Shown: positions 35,448 through 41,930 of the stretch, one piece after another
How the letters are laid out: each line of letters opens with the position of its first letter
How positions within the stretch are numbered: position 1 is the first letter of the stretch
Assembly: GCA_963748625.1 (NCBI GenBank)
Contig: CAVVJT010000003.1
Span: forward strand, 64,001-128,000
Length of the DNA: 64,000 bases
Direction: 5' to 3'
From: an uncultured Chloroflexia bacterium
Lineage (GTDB): Bacteria > Chloroflexota > Limnocylindria > Limnocylindrales > CSP1-4
Made by a program: the position numbers and the translations under genes
The notes under the pieces: model-generated
What the model saw: only the letters and a program-made list of their open reading frames with translations
Database searches by the model: none
What the model was told of the DNA's origin: nothing

Positions 35448-36385
35448 GCATCGCGCCGCTCGTCGTCATCGGTGGTCCCACCGCCACCGGCAAGACCGCA
35501 CTGGCCCTGGCGATCGCGGACCGCCTCGCACGCCACGGCGTCCCCTGCGAGGTGGTGTCCGCCGACAGCCGCCAGGTGTACCGGGGCCTCGACATCGGCA
35601 CCGCCAAGGCGACTGTCGAGGAGCGGGCACGCGTCATCCACCACGGAATCGACCTCGTGGACCCGGACCAGCCGTACTCCATCGCGGCATTCCGGGGCCA
35701 CGCCCTGAACGCCCTCGAGGCGCTCGGCGCACGGGGTGGCATCGGCATCCTGGCGGGCGGCACGGGCTTCTGGCTGCGCAGCGTCTTCGCCGGGATCGAC
35801 ACCGATGCGCTGCCGTCCGACGCCACGATCCGGGCGACGCTCGAGCGCGATCTCGAGACCGGCGGCCTCGGCCCCATGGCCCGGCAGTTGCGGCAGCTCG
35901 CGCCGCGTCTCGCGTCCCGCACGGACCTGCGCAACCCACGCCGGGTGGTGCGGGCGCTCGAGATCGCCACGATCGCGGGCGATGCGCCGCTGCCGGCGCC
36001 CGTCGGCTACCCGGCCCCTGTGCTGGGCCTGCAGCTGACGGTCGAGCCGGTCGAGCACCGCCGCCGGATCGAGGCACGGGCCCGCGCCCAGTTCGACGCC
36101 GGTCTGGTCGAGGAGGCGAGGGCGTTGCGCGACCGGTGGGACCCGGCCCTCCCGTGCTTCACCGCGATCGGCTACCACGAGTCGTGGGGGTTCATCGACG
36201 GCGCCTGCACGCTCGACGAGGCGATCGCACTGGACGCCGCCAACAACCTCGCCTTCGCCAGGCGCCAGCGGACGTGGTTCCGTTCGGAGCGTTCGCTGGC
36301 CGTCATCGATGCGACGGGCGACCTCTCCGACGAGGCCATCGCCCGCGCCGAGGCCTTCGCCCTGGACGCCAGCACGGGCGCGTGA
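35444..36385 (+). CDS. miaA: tRNA dimethylallyltransferase
   Basis: GGPTATGKT, SADSRQVYRGLDIGTAK, GGTGFW, ARRQRTWF; P-loop lies upstream of first ATG/GTG so a CTG start is inferred. Confidence 0.93.
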   Translation: MSIAPLVVIGGPTATGKTALALAIADRLARHGVPCEVVSADSRQVYRGLDIGTAKATVEERARVIHHGIDLVDPDQPYSIAAFRGHALNALEALGARGGIGILAGGTGFWLRSVFAGIDTDALPSDATIRATLERDLETGGLGPMARQLRQLAPRLASRTDLRNPRRVVRALEIATIAGDAPLPAPVGYPAPVLGLQLTVEPVEHRRRIEARARAQFDAGLVEEARALRDRWDPALPCFTAIGYHESWGFIDGACTLDEAIALDAANNLAFARRQRTWFRSERSLAVIDATGDLSDEAIARAEAFALDASTGA

Positions 36386-36410
36386 CCGGCACCCGGTATC
36401 CTTGCGGACG

Positions 36411-37727
36411 ATGAGCCCGCGCGATCCGATCGACCTCGCACCCCCTGTTGAGAGAGCCTTCCTGCTCGCCGTGGACACCGGCGACGATCCCGGCTGGACC
36501 GCGGAGGACAGCCTGGGCGAGCTGGCCGCGCTCGCAGCCACCGCCGGGGCTGAGGTCGTGGGCGCCGAATGGCAGAACCGCCGCCACATCGACCCGAACT
36601 GGTACGTGGGCAAGGGCAAGGCCGAGGAGTTGCTCCAGGCCAAATCCGAGACCGGCTTCGAACTGGTCATCGCCGACGACGAGCTCAGCCCCACCCAGCA
36701 GAAGACGCTTGAGCAGCTGCTCAATGTCAAGGTCATCGACCGCAGCCGGCTGATCCTCGACATCTTCGCGCTCCACGCGCAGACCCACGAGGGCCGCCTC
36801 CAGGTGGAGCTCGCCCAGCTGGAGTACCAGCTGCCGCGCCTGACCCGCTTGTGGACGCATCTCTCGCGCACCGGCGGCGGGATCGGGACGCGGGGTCCGG
36901 GCGAGTCGCAGCTCGAAACCGACCGGCGCCTGATCCGCGAGCGGATCAAGAAGATGAAGGCCAAGGTGGAGGACGTCCGCCAGCAGCGCCAGACCACGGC
37001 GCGCGGCCGGGATCGCCGCCTGTATCCCACCGTGGCCATCGTGGGCTACACGAACGCCGGCAAGTCCACACTGCTCAACTCGCTCGTCGGCTCCGTGGTT
37101 GCCAAGGCCGAGGACAAGCTCTTCGCCACGCTCGACCCCACCTCCCGCCAGGTCAAGCTGGGCGAGGGCCAGACGGTGATCGTCACCGACACCGTGGGCT
37201 TCATCCACAAGCTGCCCCACCAGCTTGTCGATGCCTTCCGCGCCACGCTCGAGGAAGTCACCCGTGCCGACGTCCTCGTGGAGGTCGTCGACGTCTCCGA
37301 CGCCCATGCCCCCGAGCACCGTGCCACTGTGCAACTGGTCCTCGACGAGCTCGACGCGGGAGCCAAGCCCCGCCTCACCGCCTTCAACAAGGCGGACCTC
37401 CTGTACGCGGGCGTGGACGGCGACCTGCCCGCGCCTGCGGTCGCGGGCTCGGTCCTCGTGTCGGCGGCAACCGGCTTCGGCCTTGACACCCTCCGCGCGG
37501 AGATCGCCGCGCTCCTCGCGTCGCTCTGGGAGGAGGTTGACGTGGCGGTGCCCTACGCGGCGGGCGAGCTGCTCGCCCGGGTGCGGGAGCGGGGAACCGT
37601 CGATCTCGAGTACGGCGATCGCTCGGTGCGCGTGCGCGGACGCATGGCGCCCTCGATGGCCGGCGAGCTGCGGGCCGTGGCCAACCGCTGGCAGGCCACG
37701 CTCGAGGAGGAGGGCGTGCAGGCGTGA
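36411..37727 (+). CDS. hflX: Ribosome-splitting GTPase HflX
   Basis: LILDIFA, LQVELAQL.Y.LPRL, GPGESQLETDRR, GYTNAGKS, LFATLDPT, DTVGFI, NKAD. Confidence 0.97.
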   Translation: MSPRDPIDLAPPVERAFLLAVDTGDDPGWTAEDSLGELAALAATAGAEVVGAEWQNRRHIDPNWYVGKGKAEELLQAKSETGFELVIADDELSPTQQKTLEQLLNVKVIDRSRLILDIFALHAQTHEGRLQVELAQLEYQLPRLTRLWTHLSRTGGGIGTRGPGESQLETDRRLIRERIKKMKAKVEDVRQQRQTTARGRDRRLYPTVAIVGYTNAGKSTLLNSLVGSVVAKAEDKLFATLDPTSRQVKLGEGQTVIVTDTVGFIHKLPHQLVDAFRATLEEVTRADVLVEVVDVSDAHAPEHRATVQLVLDELDAGAKPRLTAFNKADLLYAGVDGDLPAPAVAGSVLVSAATGFGLDTLRAEIAALLASLWEEVDVAVPYAAGELLARVRERGTVDLEYGDRSVRVRGRMAPSMAGELRAVANRWQATLEEEGVQA

Positions 37728-38320
37728 CCCAGGATCGCGACGCGTGGGTCAGGCTGACGGCCGTCGGCGCCCTCCCGGGCGGACGCCGGATCAGCTGGAC
37801 CGTTGCGGATGGGACCCGCGGGCGACGCTGGCGGGCCGCGACCACCGGATCCGACGGGCGCCTCGTGCACAGCCTGCTCCTCGAGACCACGCCCGATGGG
37901 ACGCCGACGCGGGTCGAGGTCACGGCGGCGGGTCGTCTGCTCACCCTGCATCCTGGCCCCGACGGGACAGCGATGCACGGCAACTGCGCCCGCGAAGGTG
38001 GCGTCGACCACATCGTCTTGCCGTGGGGCGAAACGTTCGTCCTCATGTTCGACGCCTCGCCGGTGACTGCTGCCGTTGCGGCCCGGACCCTGGCGCCGAG
38101 GGTCGGGGTAGGGGAGGGGGCCTCGGTGCCCGTCATCGAAGTCGGCGAGGACCTCGCCGTCCGGCATGCAACGTGGCGGGTCGCCCGGGTGGGACGCGGC
38201 CGCTGGCGATTGCTTGCGGCGGACGGCGGCGTGAGCACCACCGTGGAGATCGACGAGGACGGGCTGCCCGACCTTGCCGACGCGCGGCGCTGGCCCATGG
38301 AGGTCCGCCCGGCGGGCTGA
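37724..38320 (+). CDS. Hypothetical protein (beta-rich)
   Basis: 198-aa ORF with GTGA overlap to the hflX stop; no recognisable motif. Confidence 0.65.
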   Translation: MTQDRDAWVRLTAVGALPGGRRISWTVADGTRGRRWRAATTGSDGRLVHSLLLETTPDGTPTRVEVTAAGRLLTLHPGPDGTAMHGNCAREGGVDHIVLPWGETFVLMFDASPVTAAVAARTLAPRVGVGEGASVPVIEVGEDLAVRHATWRVARVGRGRWRLLAADGGVSTTVEIDEDGLPDLADARRWPMEVRPAG

Positions 38321-38333
38321 TCCGCGCCGGATC

Positions 38334-38430
38334 GGGGACAACCTGTGGACGGGTGTTGGCAACTCGTCCGAAGCCCTGCCGAAACTCGTGGATAACCGTG
38401 TTGTGAGACCGGTGCCGCCGCCCGTATTCT
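38334..38430 (+). promoter_or_regulatory. Promoter (TTGTGA..TATTCT) with upstream DnaA-box-like motifs
   Basis: GGGGACAACCTGTGGAC at 38334-38350 and CGTGGATAAC near 38387-38396 (TTATCCACA consensus with mismatches); TATTCT at 38425-38430. Confidence 0.5.
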
Positions 38431-38437
38431 TCGTCTT

Positions 38438-38562
38438 GCCCGAAGGGGCGGACGAACTGGTCGACGGAGCCGAAGGTGCTTGCACCGGCGGATCCCGAGG
38501 TCACCGCAAGTGCTTGCACAGGCGGGGACCGGACCGGGGAGGCGGTTCCTTCGGGCGTTTTG
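38438..38562 (+). ncRNA. Candidate novel structured ncRNA with twin CUUG-tetraloop arms
   Basis: 12-bp closing stem, P2 stem, two near-identical AA-(G)GUG CUUG CAC(C)-RG arms, short U-rich tail, -10 box 7 nt upstream. Confidence 0.7.
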
Positions 38563-38671
38563 CTGCCCCCGAGGCGAGGTGATCCTGCGGGCCGGCGTCA
38601 CGCCGGGCGGTCCTGGGCGTCCTCAGCAGTGAGCCGGGTTCCGGTGACGATGCGGGTTCTCGGAGGCCGCG

Positions 38672-39475
38672 ATGCGCACGGGGCGCTCCGCCGTTCTGAC
38701 CTGGTCGGGTCTCGCGCTGCTGCTCGCCGGCGCGTTCGTACCCGACCTCCGTATCGCGGCAGCCGTCCTGGTGGTTGTCGGATGGGGAACCCTGCGTGCC
38801 CGCGACCGGCCAGAGGCCATCGCCTGGGCAGCCGTGCTGCCGCTCGCCGTCGTCCTGCCATGGCCGCTCCTGCTGGGTGCCGATGTGCCGCTCGGCGAAC
38901 CGGCCTGCACGAGCCCGTTCTCCGCGATCGTCCTCCGTCGCCTCGCCGTCGCCGGGTTCGGGCTTGCGATCGTCGCGGCCCTCGCACGGGTGCACGGATC
39001 GTCGCGCCTCGAGCTGGGCGTCCAGACCCCCACCCCACGGGAGGCCACCCTCGCCGTCGCGGCCTGCGCCGTCCTCGTCATCGGCGGGCTGATCGTGGGT
39101 CCCCTCATCGCGCGCCCGTTCTTCGGCACGCTCGACTTCCCGGTCCCTCCGGCCGCCCTGCTGCCTGCCCTGGTGTTCGGAATTGCCAATGGGGTGCTCG
39201 AGGAGGTCCAGTACCGGGGGGCCATGCAGGCGTGGCTGATGCGCGTCAGCGCGCCATGGGCCGCGATCCTCGCGCAGGGGGTCGTGTTCGGCGTGGTCCA
39301 TGCCGGCCCCGAGGTGGTCGCCCTGCTCCCGGTCCACATCGCCCTGCTCGCTGGTGCCGGGGTGGCGGCTGGGCTCGTGCGCCGCTGGACCGGATCGCTC
39401 TGGCTGCCGATCGGGATCCACGTGGGTGCGGACATCGCGCTGTACGTGGGACTGGCGTGCAGGGCCGCCCCGTAG
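38672..39475 (+). CDS. CPBP (Abi/CAAX) family intramembrane metalloprotease
   Basis: EEVQYRG, FGVVH, TGSLWLPIGIH..AD motifs, multiple TM segments; GGAGG RBS. Confidence 0.88.
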   Translation: MRTGRSAVLTWSGLALLLAGAFVPDLRIAAAVLVVVGWGTLRARDRPEAIAWAAVLPLAVVLPWPLLLGADVPLGEPACTSPFSAIVLRRLAVAGFGLAIVAALARVHGSSRLELGVQTPTPREATLAVAACAVLVIGGLIVGPLIARPFFGTLDFPVPPAALLPALVFGIANGVLEEVQYRGAMQAWLMRVSAPWAAILAQGVVFGVVHAGPEVVALLPVHIALLAGAGVAAGLVRRWTGSLWLPIGIHVGADIALYVGLACRAAP

Positions 39476-40238: not shown

Positions 40239-41930
40239 GTGATGTCAGGGGGACGTGTGGACGACTCGAGCATGCGGAGCGCTTCGACCAGGACGCCCCG
40301 CCAGCATCGGCGGACCCGGGTCCGGATGCTTCTGAAGGCGCTGGTGTCGCCTTCGCGGTTCGCGATCGTCGGCCTCATCGGCATCTTCGTGAACCAGGTC
40401 GCGCTGTGGGCCTTCACCGACCTCGGCGGCATCAACTACCTGGTCTCGGCGGTCCTCGCCTCCCAGGTGTCGACGCTCAACAACTTCGTCCTCACCGAGC
40501 TCTGGGTCTTCCGCGGGCGTGACCTGCGCGGACACGCCTTCCTCCGCTATATCGCGTTCGACCTCGTCAACATGGCCACGCTGGTCATCCGGATCCCGGT
40601 CCTGTGGCTGCTGACCGACATCGTCGGGCTCTTCTACCTGTGGTCGAACCTCGTCGCGATCATGATCACGTTCGGGGTCCGGTACCTGATCGCGGACAAC
40701 TGGATCTGGGCGGGCCGCGACCACATGGCCCAGAAGGCGGTCGATGGCGTGTTCCACTACGACATCGCGGGCCTTGTCCGCCTCGTGTCGCCGGTGGCGC
40801 TTCCGGAGCTTGCCTCGATGAATGTGGCCCATGCCGTCGACGCGGACATCGTGATCACGCGACGGGCGATCGGCGGCGGGCCGCGCCTCCACCGCAGAAC
40901 ATGGAGGGCCGAGAGCGGATCGATCCACTACCGGGAGCAGCTCGGCTTCCTCGGCGCTGCGTTCGACGTACGCATGCCGCCGGACGGGCGAGGGCCGATC
41001 GCCCTTGACGCCAACTGGTTGCTGGTGTGGTCGCACCACGTGCTGTACACGAACATGGTCGAGCCCCTGCTGCGCTTCGTGCTCATCGATCGCGGCCACG
41101 TCCTGCTCCACAGCGCCGCGGTGGACGCGGACAACGGCGCCGTGCTCATGTCGGCACTGACCGACACCGGCAAGACAAGCACGGTCCTGCGCCTGCTCAT
41201 GGAACGGCCATGGGGTTTCCTGGCCGATGACATGGTCATCGTGGCGCCGAGCGGCATGATCCTGGGCTACCCGAAGCCGATGACCCTCTCGTCGCACACC
41301 ATGAATGCCGTGAACGACCAGGCGCTGCCGGTCGCCGACCGCATGATGCTTGCGCTCCGCTCCAAGCTGCACTCGAGGGAGGGGCGGGCCGTCGGCCACG
41401 CGATGGGCCGCATGCCGCTCCCGATCGTGACGATCAACGCCTGGGTCCAGATCCTTGTCCCGCCGCCCAAGTACCACGTCACCTCCCTGATCGAGTGCGA
41501 TGTCGTCGACCACTCCCAGCTGGATGCCGTCATCCTCATGGAGCGAGGGGAGCCATTCGCCGAGATCCCGGAGCTCGAGGCAACGATCGACCGCCTGCTC
41601 GCGAACACGGACGACGCGTACACGTTCCCGCCCTTCTCCTCCTTCGCGCCGCTGATCAGCCTCAACGGCATGGATCACGACGATCTCCGCGGGCGCGAGC
41701 GTGAGCTCCTGACCGAGGCCGTGTCGACGGCCTGGCGCGTTCGCGTTCGCGTGACCGGCCACAACTGGTCCGACCTCATTCCGAGCCTGCTGGCGGAGCG
41801 CAGGCCCCTGCTGGAGCCCGTTGACGCGTCGGCTGAGCCCCCGGCTGCGGCAGCGCCAGACCTGGCGACGCCGGGTCCCGACGACGAAGCGTCGACAGAG
41901 CGCTCGGCAGTCGTCGCCGACGTCCCGTGA
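40239..41930 (+). CDS. GtrA-like flippase fused to an HPr-kinase-like P-loop domain (start uncertain)
   Basis: RFAIVG..G..VN...NF...E.WVF four-TM GtrA unit followed by LLHSAAV..GAVLMSALTDTGKTST..WGFLADDMVIV. Confidence 0.75.
   Translation: MMSGGRVDDSSMRSASTRTPRQHRRTRVRMLLKALVSPSRFAIVGLIGIFVNQVALWAFTDLGGINYLVSAVLASQVSTLNNFVLTELWVFRGRDLRGHAFLRYIAFDLVNMATLVIRIPVLWLLTDIVGLFYLWSNLVAIMITFGVRYLIADNWIWAGRDHMAQKAVDGVFHYDIAGLVRLVSPVALPELASMNVAHAVDADIVITRRAIGGGPRLHRRTWRAESGSIHYREQLGFLGAAFDVRMPPDGRGPIALDANWLLVWSHHVLYTNMVEPLLRFVLIDRGHVLLHSAAVDADNGAVLMSALTDTGKTSTVLRLLMERPWGFLADDMVIVAPSGMILGYPKPMTLSSHTMNAVNDQALPVADRMMLALRSKLHSREGRAVGHAMGRMPLPIVTINAWVQILVPPPKYHVTSLIECDVVDHSQLDAVILMERGEPFAEIPELEATIDRLLANTDDAYTFPPFSSFAPLISLNGMDHDDLRGRERELLTEAVSTAWRVRVRVTGHNWSDLIPSLLAERRPLLEPVDASAEPPAAAAPDLATPGPDDEASTERSAVVADVP

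What the first reader, a model, noticed from the sequence alone, without database searches (positions are those of the whole stretch)
38438..38562. Candidate new ncRNA: three-way junction with twin G(CUUG)C arms
Seen: P1 GCCCGAAGGGGC(38438-49)/GUUCCUUCGGGC(38545-56), then a 7x7 purine-rich internal loop and P2 CUGGUC/GACCGG. Arm 1 is CGGAGCCG-AA-GGUG-CUUG-CACC-GG-CGGAUCCCG and arm 2 is GGUCACCGC-AA-GUG-CUUG-CAC-AG-GCGG-GGACC, followed by GUUUUG. It starts 7 nt after TATTCT and ends ~110 nt before the next gene, so it looks like a standalone transcript. Established: G(CUUG)C is a stable RNA tetraloop also capping 16S rRNA helix 6 in many bacteria. Inference: two identical tandem-purine-mismatch hairpins suggest a sponge or scaffold for a dimeric protein, or an rRNA mimic, notably downstream of hflX. 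I cannot match it to tRNA, SRP, 6S, tmRNA, RNase P or a known riboswitch.
Basis: partly seen in the sequence, partly recalled or inferred. Interest (0 to 1): 0.78.

Follow-up and report, generated by a model that had tools for sequence, protein, structure and literature searches.

The report
New clamp-ended small RNA gene
A conserved, roughly 120-base folded RNA gene just after the hflX operon of an uncultured Chloroflexota bacterium belongs to a large, uncatalogued family of small RNAs whose two ends are always locked by the same helix; what it does is still unknown.

Summary
Window 38438-38556 (+) folds as described: a 12-bp end helix, P2 and two G(CUUG)C hairpins (-67 kcal/mol, z -3.9). It matches no Rfam family and is not a dispersed repeat.

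It is the hflX-linked "type A" member of an uncatalogued small-RNA superfamily of Limnocylindria (Chloroflexota). Members share:
- a near-invariant end clamp, GCCCGAAGGGGC/GUUCCUUCGGGC;
- a U-rich tail;
- a promoter with a DnaA-box-like GTGGAYAA motif 41-43 nt upstream (169 of 184 elements).

The clamp occurs in 122 of 201 genomes of the family, and in two of five families of the class. Inner modules differ between types. The type A hairpin occurs once, twice (as here) or three times.

Covariation supports the fold. Type A lies after hflX-ORF198 in 101 of 106 cases, but before a CPBP protease in only 22 of 101. It is therefore not that gene's leader.

Function is inferred, not shown. The best guess is a multivalent protein-binding RNA. 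Sequence gives no support for an rRNA mimic. No expression data were found.

The scan met this family before on other DNA (e1-5095769, e1-2853583, e1-4853006).

The parts
38345..38352 (+). Degenerate distal box GTGGACGG. It matches GTGGAYAA at 6 of 8 positions and ends 85 nt before the RNA start.
   Evidence: Sequence read. A second GTGGAYAA box ends 82-85 nt upstream at 115 sites among 184 family members.
38388..38395 (+). Proximal DnaA-box-like motif GTGGATAA, within TCGTGGATAAC. It ends 42 nt before G38438.
   Evidence: 169 of 184 unique elements carry GTGGAYAA upstream, and 168 box sites end 41-43 nt before the clamp. CGTGGATAA occurs only 3 times in the 4.6-Mb genome, two of them at clamp-RNA promoters.
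38401..38406 (+). -35-like hexamer TTGTGA, with an 18-nt spacer to the -10.
   Evidence: The same position holds TTGnnn-like hexamers in paralogues and orthologues. It falls below the threshold of the simple scan.
38425..38430 (+). -10-like hexamer TATTCT, followed by 7 nt (TCGTCTT) to the inferred start.
   Evidence: TAnnnT stands at -13..-8 in the family: TATCGT in 47, TATGGT in 16, and others among 184.
38438..38449 (+). P1 5' strand (clamp) GCCCGAAGGGGC. G38438 is the inferred transcription start.
38457..38462 (+). P2 5' strand CUGGUC.
   Evidence: The P2 columns covary in relatives.
38466..38495 (+). Arm 1: type A hairpin module, CCG-AA-GGUG-CUUG-CACC-GG-CGG.
   Evidence: In the 100-sequence alignment the hairpin helix is 93.6% paired and 8 of its 8 pairs show changes on both sides.
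38499..38530 (+). Arm 2: second copy of the type A hairpin module, CCGC-AA-GUG-CUUG-CAC-AG-GCGG.
   Evidence: The arm is absent from the 16 one-arm orthologues and triplicated in 2.
38532..38537 (+). P2 3' strand GACCGG.
38545..38556 (+). P1 3' strand (clamp) GUUCCUUCGGGC.
38557..38562 (+). U-rich tail GUUUUG. With the clamp it forms the inferred intrinsic terminator.
   Evidence: Family tails are GTTTCGTT (55), GTTTTCGT (28), GTTTTGCT (14) and others among 184.
36309..38320 (+). Conserved upstream neighbours. hflX is 36309-37727. ORF198 is 37724-38320, overlaps the hflX stop, and has a DUF1089-like fold.

Best explanation
Identity (about 0.85-0.9 likely). Window 38438-38562 is an independently transcribed small RNA gene of about 119-125 nt. 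A promoter made of a DnaA-box-like GTGGATAA site (38388-38395), TTGTGA, an 18-nt spacer and TATTCT starts transcription at or near G38438. The RNA's two ends pair into a 12-bp clamp (P1). With the following U-tract, the clamp ends transcription and probably shields both ends from exonucleases. It is the hflX-linked 'type A' member of a clamp-sRNA superfamily restricted to part of the class Limnocylindria (Chloroflexota).

Mechanism (inferred, about 0.4 likely). The clamp is a common chassis. It may also be a common protein handle, since it is nearly invariant. The working parts are the inner hairpins: a helix with a purine-purine mismatch, a G-C/G.U step and a stable tetraloop. These would be binding sites for a still unknown protein. 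Having two of them here, against one or three in close relatives, makes the RNA a multivalent decoy or scaffold that titrates that protein. The shared upstream box puts all clamp RNAs of the cell under one DNA-binding regulator, possibly DnaA.

Shown: the fold, its conservation and covariation, the promoter and tail architecture, the synteny, and the variable number of modules.

Inferred: transcription, termination at the clamp, protein binding, and the identity of the regulator.
For: Fold statistics: z -3.89, 0 of 200 shuffles fold as well.

No Rfam family matches. BLAST finds a single copy in the genome.

Orthologues occur in 32 of 36 other same-genus genomes.

Structure counts on 100 distinct one-arm relatives:
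- 88.8% of cells are paired, against 82.0% in shuffles (0 of 500 reach it) and 28-48% when the partners are slid.
- 19 of 31 pairs change on both sides.
- The covariation score is 0.212 against 0.105.
- All 8 pairs of the arm helix covary.

P1 itself covaries between lineages.
- Family f4 has UCCC...GGGA, that is G1-C changed to U1-A. Thirteen of 15 matches start TCCC, and 4 of the 6 shown in full end GGGA.
- The genome's own type C copy has C2>U with G>A.
- Some copies have A6>G with U>C.

Distribution of the clamp:
- Exact clamp in 122 of 201 family genomes and 37 of 49 genera, with the reversed-pattern control at 0.
- In the class: f1 85/91, f4 97/103, f2 0/12, f3 2/92, f5 0/2.

Promoter and box: 169 of 184 elements carry the box, 168 box sites at 41-43 nt. 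Controls gave 11 (downstream, forward) and 5 (upstream, reverse).

Module number in the genus sample is 16 one-arm, 11 two-arm and 2 three-arm.

The arm tetraloop swaps among CUUG, UUUA, GCGA and GCAA while the stem covaries. That fits recognition of shape, not a loop seed.

Element lengths of 84/85/86/118/152 nt are not multiples of 3, which argues against coding.

Tandem genes, each with its own promoter and tail, show that the clamp plus tail ends a unit.
Against: - No transcript evidence exists. No RNA run holds the locus (recorded as tried only).
- The simple scan finds no consensus promoter or terminator at 38200-38800.
- No partner protein is identified. Hfq was found in 0 of 121 genomes of the class. 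CsrA and Ro60/TROVE were not found in the genome.
- The co-located ORF198 has a DUF1089-like beta fold with no known RNA-binding role.
- The box may not be a DnaA box. No cluster of such boxes lies next to dnaA in this assembly.
- The hairpin motif was not found enriched elsewhere in the genome: 100 regex hits against 65 in the reversed control. No set of competing mRNA sites is therefore visible.
Confidence: 0.4

Rival explanations
1. Base-pairing regulator. The RNA acts in trans on mRNAs through its conserved unpaired stretches. These are the junction and internal-loop segments, such as GGACGAA and GGGGAGG in this copy, or GACCGAAAG and GACUACGGACC in other genera. The clamp and hairpins would serve only as scaffold.
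For: Most bacterial sRNAs of this size work this way (general knowledge). Junction segments are moderately conserved within genera. The sibling type C RNAs carry sequence-conserved loops, GAGAUCACCUCAA. These share 9 nt with the 3' end of this genome's 16S rRNA, so they could pair with Shine-Dalgarno regions.
Against: The best-conserved inner element of type A is a helix, not a loop or a single strand, and its tetraloop sequence is exchangeable. The unpaired segments differ between genera. Duplex energies with the start regions of five neighbouring genes are no better than with a shuffled sRNA (a crude test). Hfq was not found in the class.
Confidence: 0.25
2. HflX- or ribosome-linked RNA, the first reader's 'rRNA mimic'. 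The hairpins would imitate an rRNA element and bind HflX, the adjacent ORF198 or another ribosome-associated factor. The RNA would so be tied to ribosome rescue.
For: Synteny with hflX-ORF198 is strikingly conserved while the downstream flank varies: 101 of 106 against 22 of 101. With this query ORF198 is found only in family f1: 23/49, against 0/7, 0/38, 0/55 and 0/1 elsewhere. Strong type A model hits above 50 bits are almost confined to f1 as well. G(CUUG)C caps 16S helix 6 here.
Against: Apart from the tetraloop there is no sequence similarity to the rRNA operon. 23S could not be scanned separately because one search failed. ORF198 has a DUF1089-like fold of unknown function. Related genomes are not independent, so the shared distribution is weak evidence. 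Synteny may simply be inherited.
Confidence: 0.1
3. Cis-acting leader or attenuator of the downstream membrane protease (CPBP) gene. The clamp plus U-tract would be a regulated terminator.
For: In this window the CPBP gene follows 109 nt after the tail on the same strand, and no promoter is detected between them. CPBP follows in roughly half of the same-genus loci.
Against: Only 22 of 101 type A elements have a CPBP gene within 1.2 kb downstream, and 4 of 101 have a GtrA-like gene. Many loci hold two or three such RNAs in tandem, each with its own promoter and tail. The same clamp and tail close unrelated paralogues at other loci.
Confidence: 0.08
4. Mainly a DNA-level element. The box clusters would titrate or position DnaA or another regulator, like datA or DARS in E. 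coli (recalled). The transcript would be secondary.
For: In this genome the only clusters of three or more DnaA-like 9-mers (at most 1 mismatch, at most 120 nt apart) are three clamp-RNA promoters. Similar boxes precede parA and rsmG.
Against: The transcribed part shows RNA-type covariation, including G.U pairs and strand asymmetry of folding. This window has only one good box plus one degenerate box.
Confidence: 0.05
5. Non-functional palindromic or repeat DNA, or an assembly artefact.
For: The genome is GC-rich (71.1%), so random hairpins are common.
Against: The element is single-copy, syntenic, conserved across genera and covarying. DNA contigs of two public runs cover parts of the locus.
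Confidence: 0.02

Closest known systems
Y RNAs and bacterial Y-like RNAs (YrlA/YrlB), partners of Ro60/Rsr
   Same: Several paralogues per genome, 70-200 nt long, share a conserved stem formed by the 5' and 3' ends. Their interiors differ, and they end in a U-rich tail. The description of Y RNAs is recalled.
   Different: No TROVE/Ro60 gene was found in this genome, which is 98% complete. No Rfam Y RNA or YrlA match appeared even at E up to 10. No tRNA-like module is present. The clamp sequence is its own.
Multi-hairpin sponge sRNAs CsrB/CsrC and RsmX/Y/Z
   Same: A repeated hairpin module occurs in variable number. Sibling genes are often in tandem. A conserved activator-like site sits upstream of the promoter. 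The Csr/Rsm features are recalled.
   Different: The loops are CUUG, UUUA or GNRA tetraloops, not GGA. CsrA was not found. An end clamp is not a Csr/Rsm feature.
Sibling sRNA sets under one regulator (Qrr1-5, GlmY/GlmZ)
   Same: Multiple sRNA genes share promoter architecture and terminator region. The named examples are recalled.
   Different: Those siblings share their functional core. Here the shared parts are only the promoter box, clamp and tail, while the cores differ (types A-D).
5' leader and attenuator RNAs of bacterial mRNAs
   Same: A structured RNA ends in a helix plus U-tract upstream of a gene on the same strand.
   Different: The downstream gene is not conserved (22 of 101). Tandem copies and unlinked paralogues exist.

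Membership tests
Any Rfam 15 family | Covariance-model score at or above the family's gathering score | tested here: not met
   There were 0 matches on the whole window. In E-value mode on 38250-38750 the only match was Moco-II at 16.7 bits against a gathering score of 35. It lies outside the element, on the other strand.
Y RNA / YrlA | A Ro60 (TROVE) protein gene in the genome, usually adjacent | tested here: not met
   PF05731 gave 0 matches in the genome. The control rang in D. radiodurans and B. thetaiotaomicron.
Y RNA / YrlA | Conserved Ro-binding helix in the terminal stem | not testable with these tools
   The terminal stem is conserved, but only binding or a structure could show Ro-type recognition. 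No model match was found.
Csr/Rsm sponge sRNAs | GGA motifs presented in hairpin loops | tested here: not met
   The arm loops are CUUG here, and CUUG, UUUA, GCGA or GCAA in relatives.
Csr/Rsm sponge sRNAs | CsrA/RsmA protein present | tested here: not met
   PF02599 gave 0 matches in the genome.
REP / MITE repeats | Many dispersed near-identical copies in one genome | tested here: not met
   Only the self-match is full length. The next best match is 34 nt at E 9e-4.
Limnocylindria clamp sRNAs (uncatalogued; defined in this scan) | 12-13-bp helix GCCCGAAGGGGC/GUUCCUUCGGGC joining the two RNA ends | tested here: met
   Exact match at 38438-38449 with 38545-38556.
Limnocylindria clamp sRNAs (uncatalogued; defined in this scan) | GTGGAYAA box ending 41-43 nt upstream, a TAnnnT -10 placed 7 nt before the start, and a U-rich tail | tested here: met
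   The box ends at 38395, 42 nt upstream. TATTCT is at 38425-38430. The tail is GUUUUG.
Type A (hflX-linked) subfamily | Hairpin with a purine mismatch, a GGUG/CAYC-type helix and a stable tetraloop | tested here: met
   Two copies are present. The one-arm covariance model R1 scores the element at 43.5 bits, E 8e-7, with the second arm treated as an insertion.
Type A (hflX-linked) subfamily | Location downstream of hflX-ORF198 on the same strand | tested here: met
   hflX is 36309-37727 and ORF198 is 37724-38320. The same arrangement holds for 101 of 106 relatives.
mRNA leader / attenuator | Constant association with one downstream gene family | tested here: not met
   CPBP lies downstream in 22 of 101 and a GtrA-like gene in 4 of 101.

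The most novel reading that the evidence does not exclude
The clamp RNAs are the RNA half of a lineage-specific ribonucleoprotein system in Hfq-less Limnocylindria. An unknown protein reads the invariant end clamp, much as Ro60 reads Y RNAs. The interchangeable inner modules (types A-D) aim the particle at different partners. Type A, locked to the hflX operon, would act on ribosome rescue. The whole set is switched by DnaA through the promoter boxes. Replication status would thereby be coupled to translation control by small RNAs.
Probability: 0.12. Interest if true: 0.85.

Novelty: new variant of a known kind. Interest (0 to 1): 0.62.

Why it matters
Limnocylindria (CSP1-4 / Ellin6529-type Chloroflexota) are abundant, uncultured soil and freshwater bacteria. 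Nothing is in print about their RNA regulators (searches found none).

This family offers four things:
- A ready-made catalogue of about 1-6 sRNA genes per genome, recognisable by a 24-nt signature.
- A modular design, with a fixed end clamp and exchangeable cores present in varying copy number.
- A shared DnaA-box-like promoter element. This hints at a regulon that includes parA and rsmG.
- For type A, an unusually tight link to hflX.

The family would be a good entry point to post-transcriptional control in a lineage without Hfq or CsrA. It is also a candidate for Rfam.

Tried and rejected
- **Expression.** The look-up of sequencing runs listed no RNA holder. Laying two metatranscriptome-labelled runs and two DNA runs gave 0 RNA contigs, and DNA contigs covered only parts of the locus. 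This is no evidence either way.
- **Known families.** Rfam was searched at gathering score and at E up to 10 and nothing usable was found.
- **Partner candidates.** Hfq was found in 0 of 121 genomes of the class. CsrA and TROVE were not found in the genome.
- **ORF198 as an RNA-binding partner.**
  - No Pfam or NCBIfam family at threshold.
  - No PDB match by sequence.
  - The Atlas gives a lead to PF06475.
  - The AlphaFold model (pLDDT 93) matches DUF1089 protein 2h1t at E 2e-6 and TM about 0.5. This is not a known RNA-binding fold.
- **Other copies of the hairpin module in the genome.** A regex scan gave 100 hits against 65 in the reversed genome, and it missed the window's own arms. It is uninformative.
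- **Antisense pairing with neighbouring start regions.** Energies were within the shuffled range. The test is crude.
- **oriC-type box cluster near dnaA, to define this organism's DnaA box.** None was found. The DnaA assignment of the promoter box therefore stays open.
- **rRNA promoters.** They carry no such box, so it is not a general stable-RNA promoter element.
- **23S rRNA model search.** It failed with a machine error and was not repeated.
- **Consensus promoter and terminator scan.** Nothing was found.
- **Supplementary files.** None were consulted.

Full report
**1. The observation**

The stretch 38438-38562 reads as reported.
- P1, 12 bp, 38438-38449 with 38545-38556.
- A purine-rich internal loop.
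- P2, 38457-38462 with 38532-38537.
- Two hairpins, 38466-38495 and 38499-38530. Each has a tandem purine mismatch and a G(CUUG)C cap.
- The tail GUUUUG.

The energy is -67.0 kcal/mol, against -53.1 +/- 3.6 for shuffles (z -3.89; 0 of 200 as good). The reverse strand folds less well (z -3.18).

TATTCT ends 7 nt before G38438. The next ORF, an Rce1-like/CPBP protease, starts at 38672.

**2. Not a known family, not a repeat**

Rfam 15 gives no match at gathering score on the whole window. A permissive scan of 38250-38750 gives only a chance Moco-II hit outside the element (16.7 bits against 35).

BLAST of the 125 nt against the 4.6-Mb genome finds only itself at full length. The REP/MITE refutation condition is therefore not met.

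**3. Orthologues and a variable number of arms**

Of 36 other same-genus genomes searched, 32 have a match. Extracting the elements showed three forms:
- One arm, 84-86 nt: 16 loci.
- Two arms, 118-120 nt: 11 loci including the window.
- Three arms, 152-154 nt: 2 loci.

Lengths differ by about 34 nt and by single bases, which does not fit a coding region. P1 and the core of the hairpin (GUGCUUGCA) are invariant in these sets. The outer arm stems show compensatory changes.

**4. A superfamily defined by the end clamp**

The same promoter-proximal sequence, the same 5' strand GCCCGAAGGGGC and the same 3' strand GUUCCUUCGGGC plus U-tail enclose quite different interiors at other loci of the same genome:

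| Copy | Place | Feature |
|---|---|---|
| Type B, 183 nt | G000:C4:514310-514492 | z -6.0 |
| Type D, 82 nt | G000:C10:1175143-1175224 | Different, sigma-70-type promoter |
| Multi-hairpin type C | G000:C7, near 279,900, minus strand | |
| Single-hairpin type C | G000:C10, near 1,155,700 | |

The exact pattern 'clamp half, 40-200 nt, clamp half' occurs in 122 of 201 genomes of the bacterial family and in 37 of 49 genera. There are up to four copies per genome, and the reversed-pattern control is zero.

With up to two mismatches the class-wide tally is f1 85/91, f4 97/103, f2 0/12, f3 2/92 and f5 0/2.

Record titles in the public collection name the carriers as Chloroflexota, 'Candidatus Limnocylindrales' or 'uncultured Chloroflexia' MAGs, with a few odd labels.

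These tallies include a few genomes flagged unpublished: 1, 6 and 2. I quote no sequence from them.

**5. Structure support**

I aligned 100 distinct one-arm type A elements from many genera. The structure I wrote has P1, P2, a short P3 and the arm helix. Counts on that alignment:
- 88.8% of cells are paired, against 82.0 +/- 0.3% in shuffles (0 of 500 reach it) and 28-48% with partners slid by 1-3 columns.
- 19 of 31 pairs change on both sides.
- The covariation score is 0.212, against 0.105 in shuffles and at most 0.051 when slid.
- All 8 pairs of the arm helix covary, and it is 93.6% paired.

The tetraloop itself swaps between CUUG, UUUA, GCGA and GCAA while the three closing pairs covary (GUG/CAU, GUA/UAU, GAU/AUC). 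Shape is therefore conserved, not loop sequence.

P1 hardly varies within family f1. Where it does vary, it does so in a compensatory way:
- Family f4 has U1-A in place of G1-C. It gives 0 of 41 genomes at one mismatch or fewer, but 5 of 5 at two. Thirteen of 15 matches start TCCC, and 4 of the 6 shown in full end GGGA.
- The genome's own type C copy has C2>U with G>A.
- Some copies have A6>G with U>C.

**6. Promoter**

Among 184 unique elements with 120 nt of upstream sequence, 169 carry GTGGAYAA.
- The box ends 41-43 nt before the clamp at 168 sites.
- A second box ends 82-85 nt upstream at 115 sites.
- Controls gave 11 (downstream, forward) and 5 (upstream, reverse).
- A TAnnnT hexamer sits at -13 to -8, and the tail is G/A-UUU(U/C)G.

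In the window the proximal box is 38388-38395, 42 nt upstream. A degenerate distal box is at 38345-38352.

The motif equals the DnaA box consensus (recalled: TTATCCACA, or TTGTCCACA in high-GC bacteria) except for its last base. Evidence bearing on that assignment:
- In this genome the only clusters of three or more such 9-mers are three clamp-RNA promoters.
- Similar boxes precede parA and rsmG.
- None lies next to dnaA, and none precedes the rRNA promoters.

The box marks a small regulon. Whether DnaA binds it is open; I put it at roughly even odds.

The simple consensus scan does not call a promoter or terminator here.

**7. Context**

Type A elements lie downstream of hflX and a 198-aa ORF on the same strand in 101 of 106 unique cases with enough flank. 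A CPBP gene follows in only 22 of 101, and a GtrA-like gene in 4 of 101. In that script 'type A' means every element of up to 165 nt that lacks the type C and D motifs.

Type D often sits in the same island (29 of 40).

This contradicts the 'leader of a membrane protease' reading given for a related locus in note e1-4853006.

ORF198 overlaps the hflX stop codon. Further findings on ORF198:
- It has no family at threshold.
- It folds with high confidence (pLDDT 93.2).
- Its fold resembles the DUF1089 protein 2h1t (E 2e-6, TM 0.50-0.53).
- With this query it is detectable only in family f1, at 23 of 49 genomes.

Nothing marks ORF198 as RNA-binding.

**8. What it probably does**

Shown: a conserved, covarying fold; a fixed promoter, clamp and tail chassis shared by paralogues with different cores; hairpin modules in variable number; and tight linkage to hflX.

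Inferred:
- The clamp plus U-tract terminates transcription and protects both ends.
- The near-invariance of the clamp suggests a sequence-specific reader.
- The type A hairpin (an irregular helix, a G-C/G.U step and an exchangeable stable tetraloop) looks like a protein site rather than an antisense seed. Its multiplication then gives a multivalent decoy or scaffold.

I give this about 0.4. Base pairing through junction segments gets about 0.25. An HflX- or ribosome-linked mimic gets about 0.1. A cis leader gets about 0.08, a DNA-level box element about 0.05 and noise about 0.02.

The lineage lacks Hfq (0 of 121 genomes). This genome lacks CsrA and Ro60. Any partner would therefore be new.

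**9. Comparison with known systems**

The architecture works most like Y RNAs, which have a conserved end stem, variable interiors and several paralogues. It also resembles Csr/Rsm sponges, which have repeated hairpins and sibling genes. It fails the defining tests of both (see the membership table).

No paper in the searched library mentions such RNAs in these bacteria (search listings only).

**10. Earlier notes of this scan**

I called search of earlier findings after reaching the clamp and box reading. Three notes on other genomes describe the same family.
- e1-5095769 describes the clamp, DnaA-box-like sites and U tail, and names Y RNA as the closest analogue.
- e1-2853583 describes paired sRNA genes near ppm1. 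A GtrA/DPMS-type gene also lies in this window at 40239-41930.
- e1-4853006 gives the leader reading, which my synteny count does not support.

New here:
- The class-level distribution and the f4 clamp variant.
- The box statistics.
- The hflX-ORF198 linkage of type A.
- The 1-2-3 arm series.

**Verdict**

This is a real, conserved small-RNA gene. It is a new type within an uncatalogued, lineage-specific family. Its function is unknown, and a protein-binding model is favoured.

Noticed in passing
G000:C4:514310-514492 (locus L039:1311-1493, +): A 183-nt 'type B' clamp RNA with the same promoter boxes. It folds at -113 kcal/mol (z -6.0). One hairpin, GGCCGAGCUUGCUCGGCC, shares the 12-mer CGAGCUUGCUCG with the helix-6 region of this genome's 16S rRNA.
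   Followed up: partly
G000:C7, about 279,600-279,990, minus strand (own genome, outside the window): A multi-hairpin 'type C' clamp RNA. Its loops read GAUCGCCUCAA, GAGAUCACCUCAA and GCGAUCACAUCAA, and share up to 9 nt (GAUCACCUC) with the 3' end of the 16S rRNA. They may be anti-Shine-Dalgarno mimics. Its 3' clamp half is degenerate. Three DnaA-like boxes lie upstream.
   Followed up: partly
G000:C10, about 1,155,590-1,155,770 (+): A single-hairpin 'type C' clamp RNA. Its clamp carries a compensatory change (C2>U with G>A). It is preceded by three DnaA-like boxes.
   Followed up: partly
G000:C10:1175143-1175224 (locus L003:1434-1515, +): An 82-nt 'type D' clamp RNA with two CUAGUGAUC repeats around a GGUGUUUACAU hairpin. 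In this genome it has a plain TTGACA/TACGGT promoter without the box. In many relatives it sits next to type A, after hflX.
   Followed up: partly
G000:C10:245106-245144 and G000:C7:1232680-1232760: DnaA-box-like motifs precede parA/soj and rsmG (gidB), including a perfect TTATCCACA and a palindromic GTGGATATCCAC. No such cluster was found in the rpmH-dnaA region (C7, about 1,161,200-1,162,100).
   Followed up: partly
window 37724-38320 (+): ORF198 overlaps the hflX stop codon (ATGA). It matches no family at threshold. A confident model (pLDDT 93) resembles DUF1089 protein 2h1t. With this query, homologues are found only in the same bacterial family (23 of 49 genomes).
   Followed up: yes
G000:C5:109432-109485: Three tandem 18-nt repeats, each ending in TGTCCAC, lie upstream of an ORF that starts with a signal-peptide-like sequence. 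They were found while scanning for box clusters.
   Followed up: no
window 38634-38680 (-): A weak Moco-II covariance-model hit (16.7 bits against a gathering score of 35, E 2.6), overlapping the CPBP start region. I judge it to be chance.
   Followed up: no
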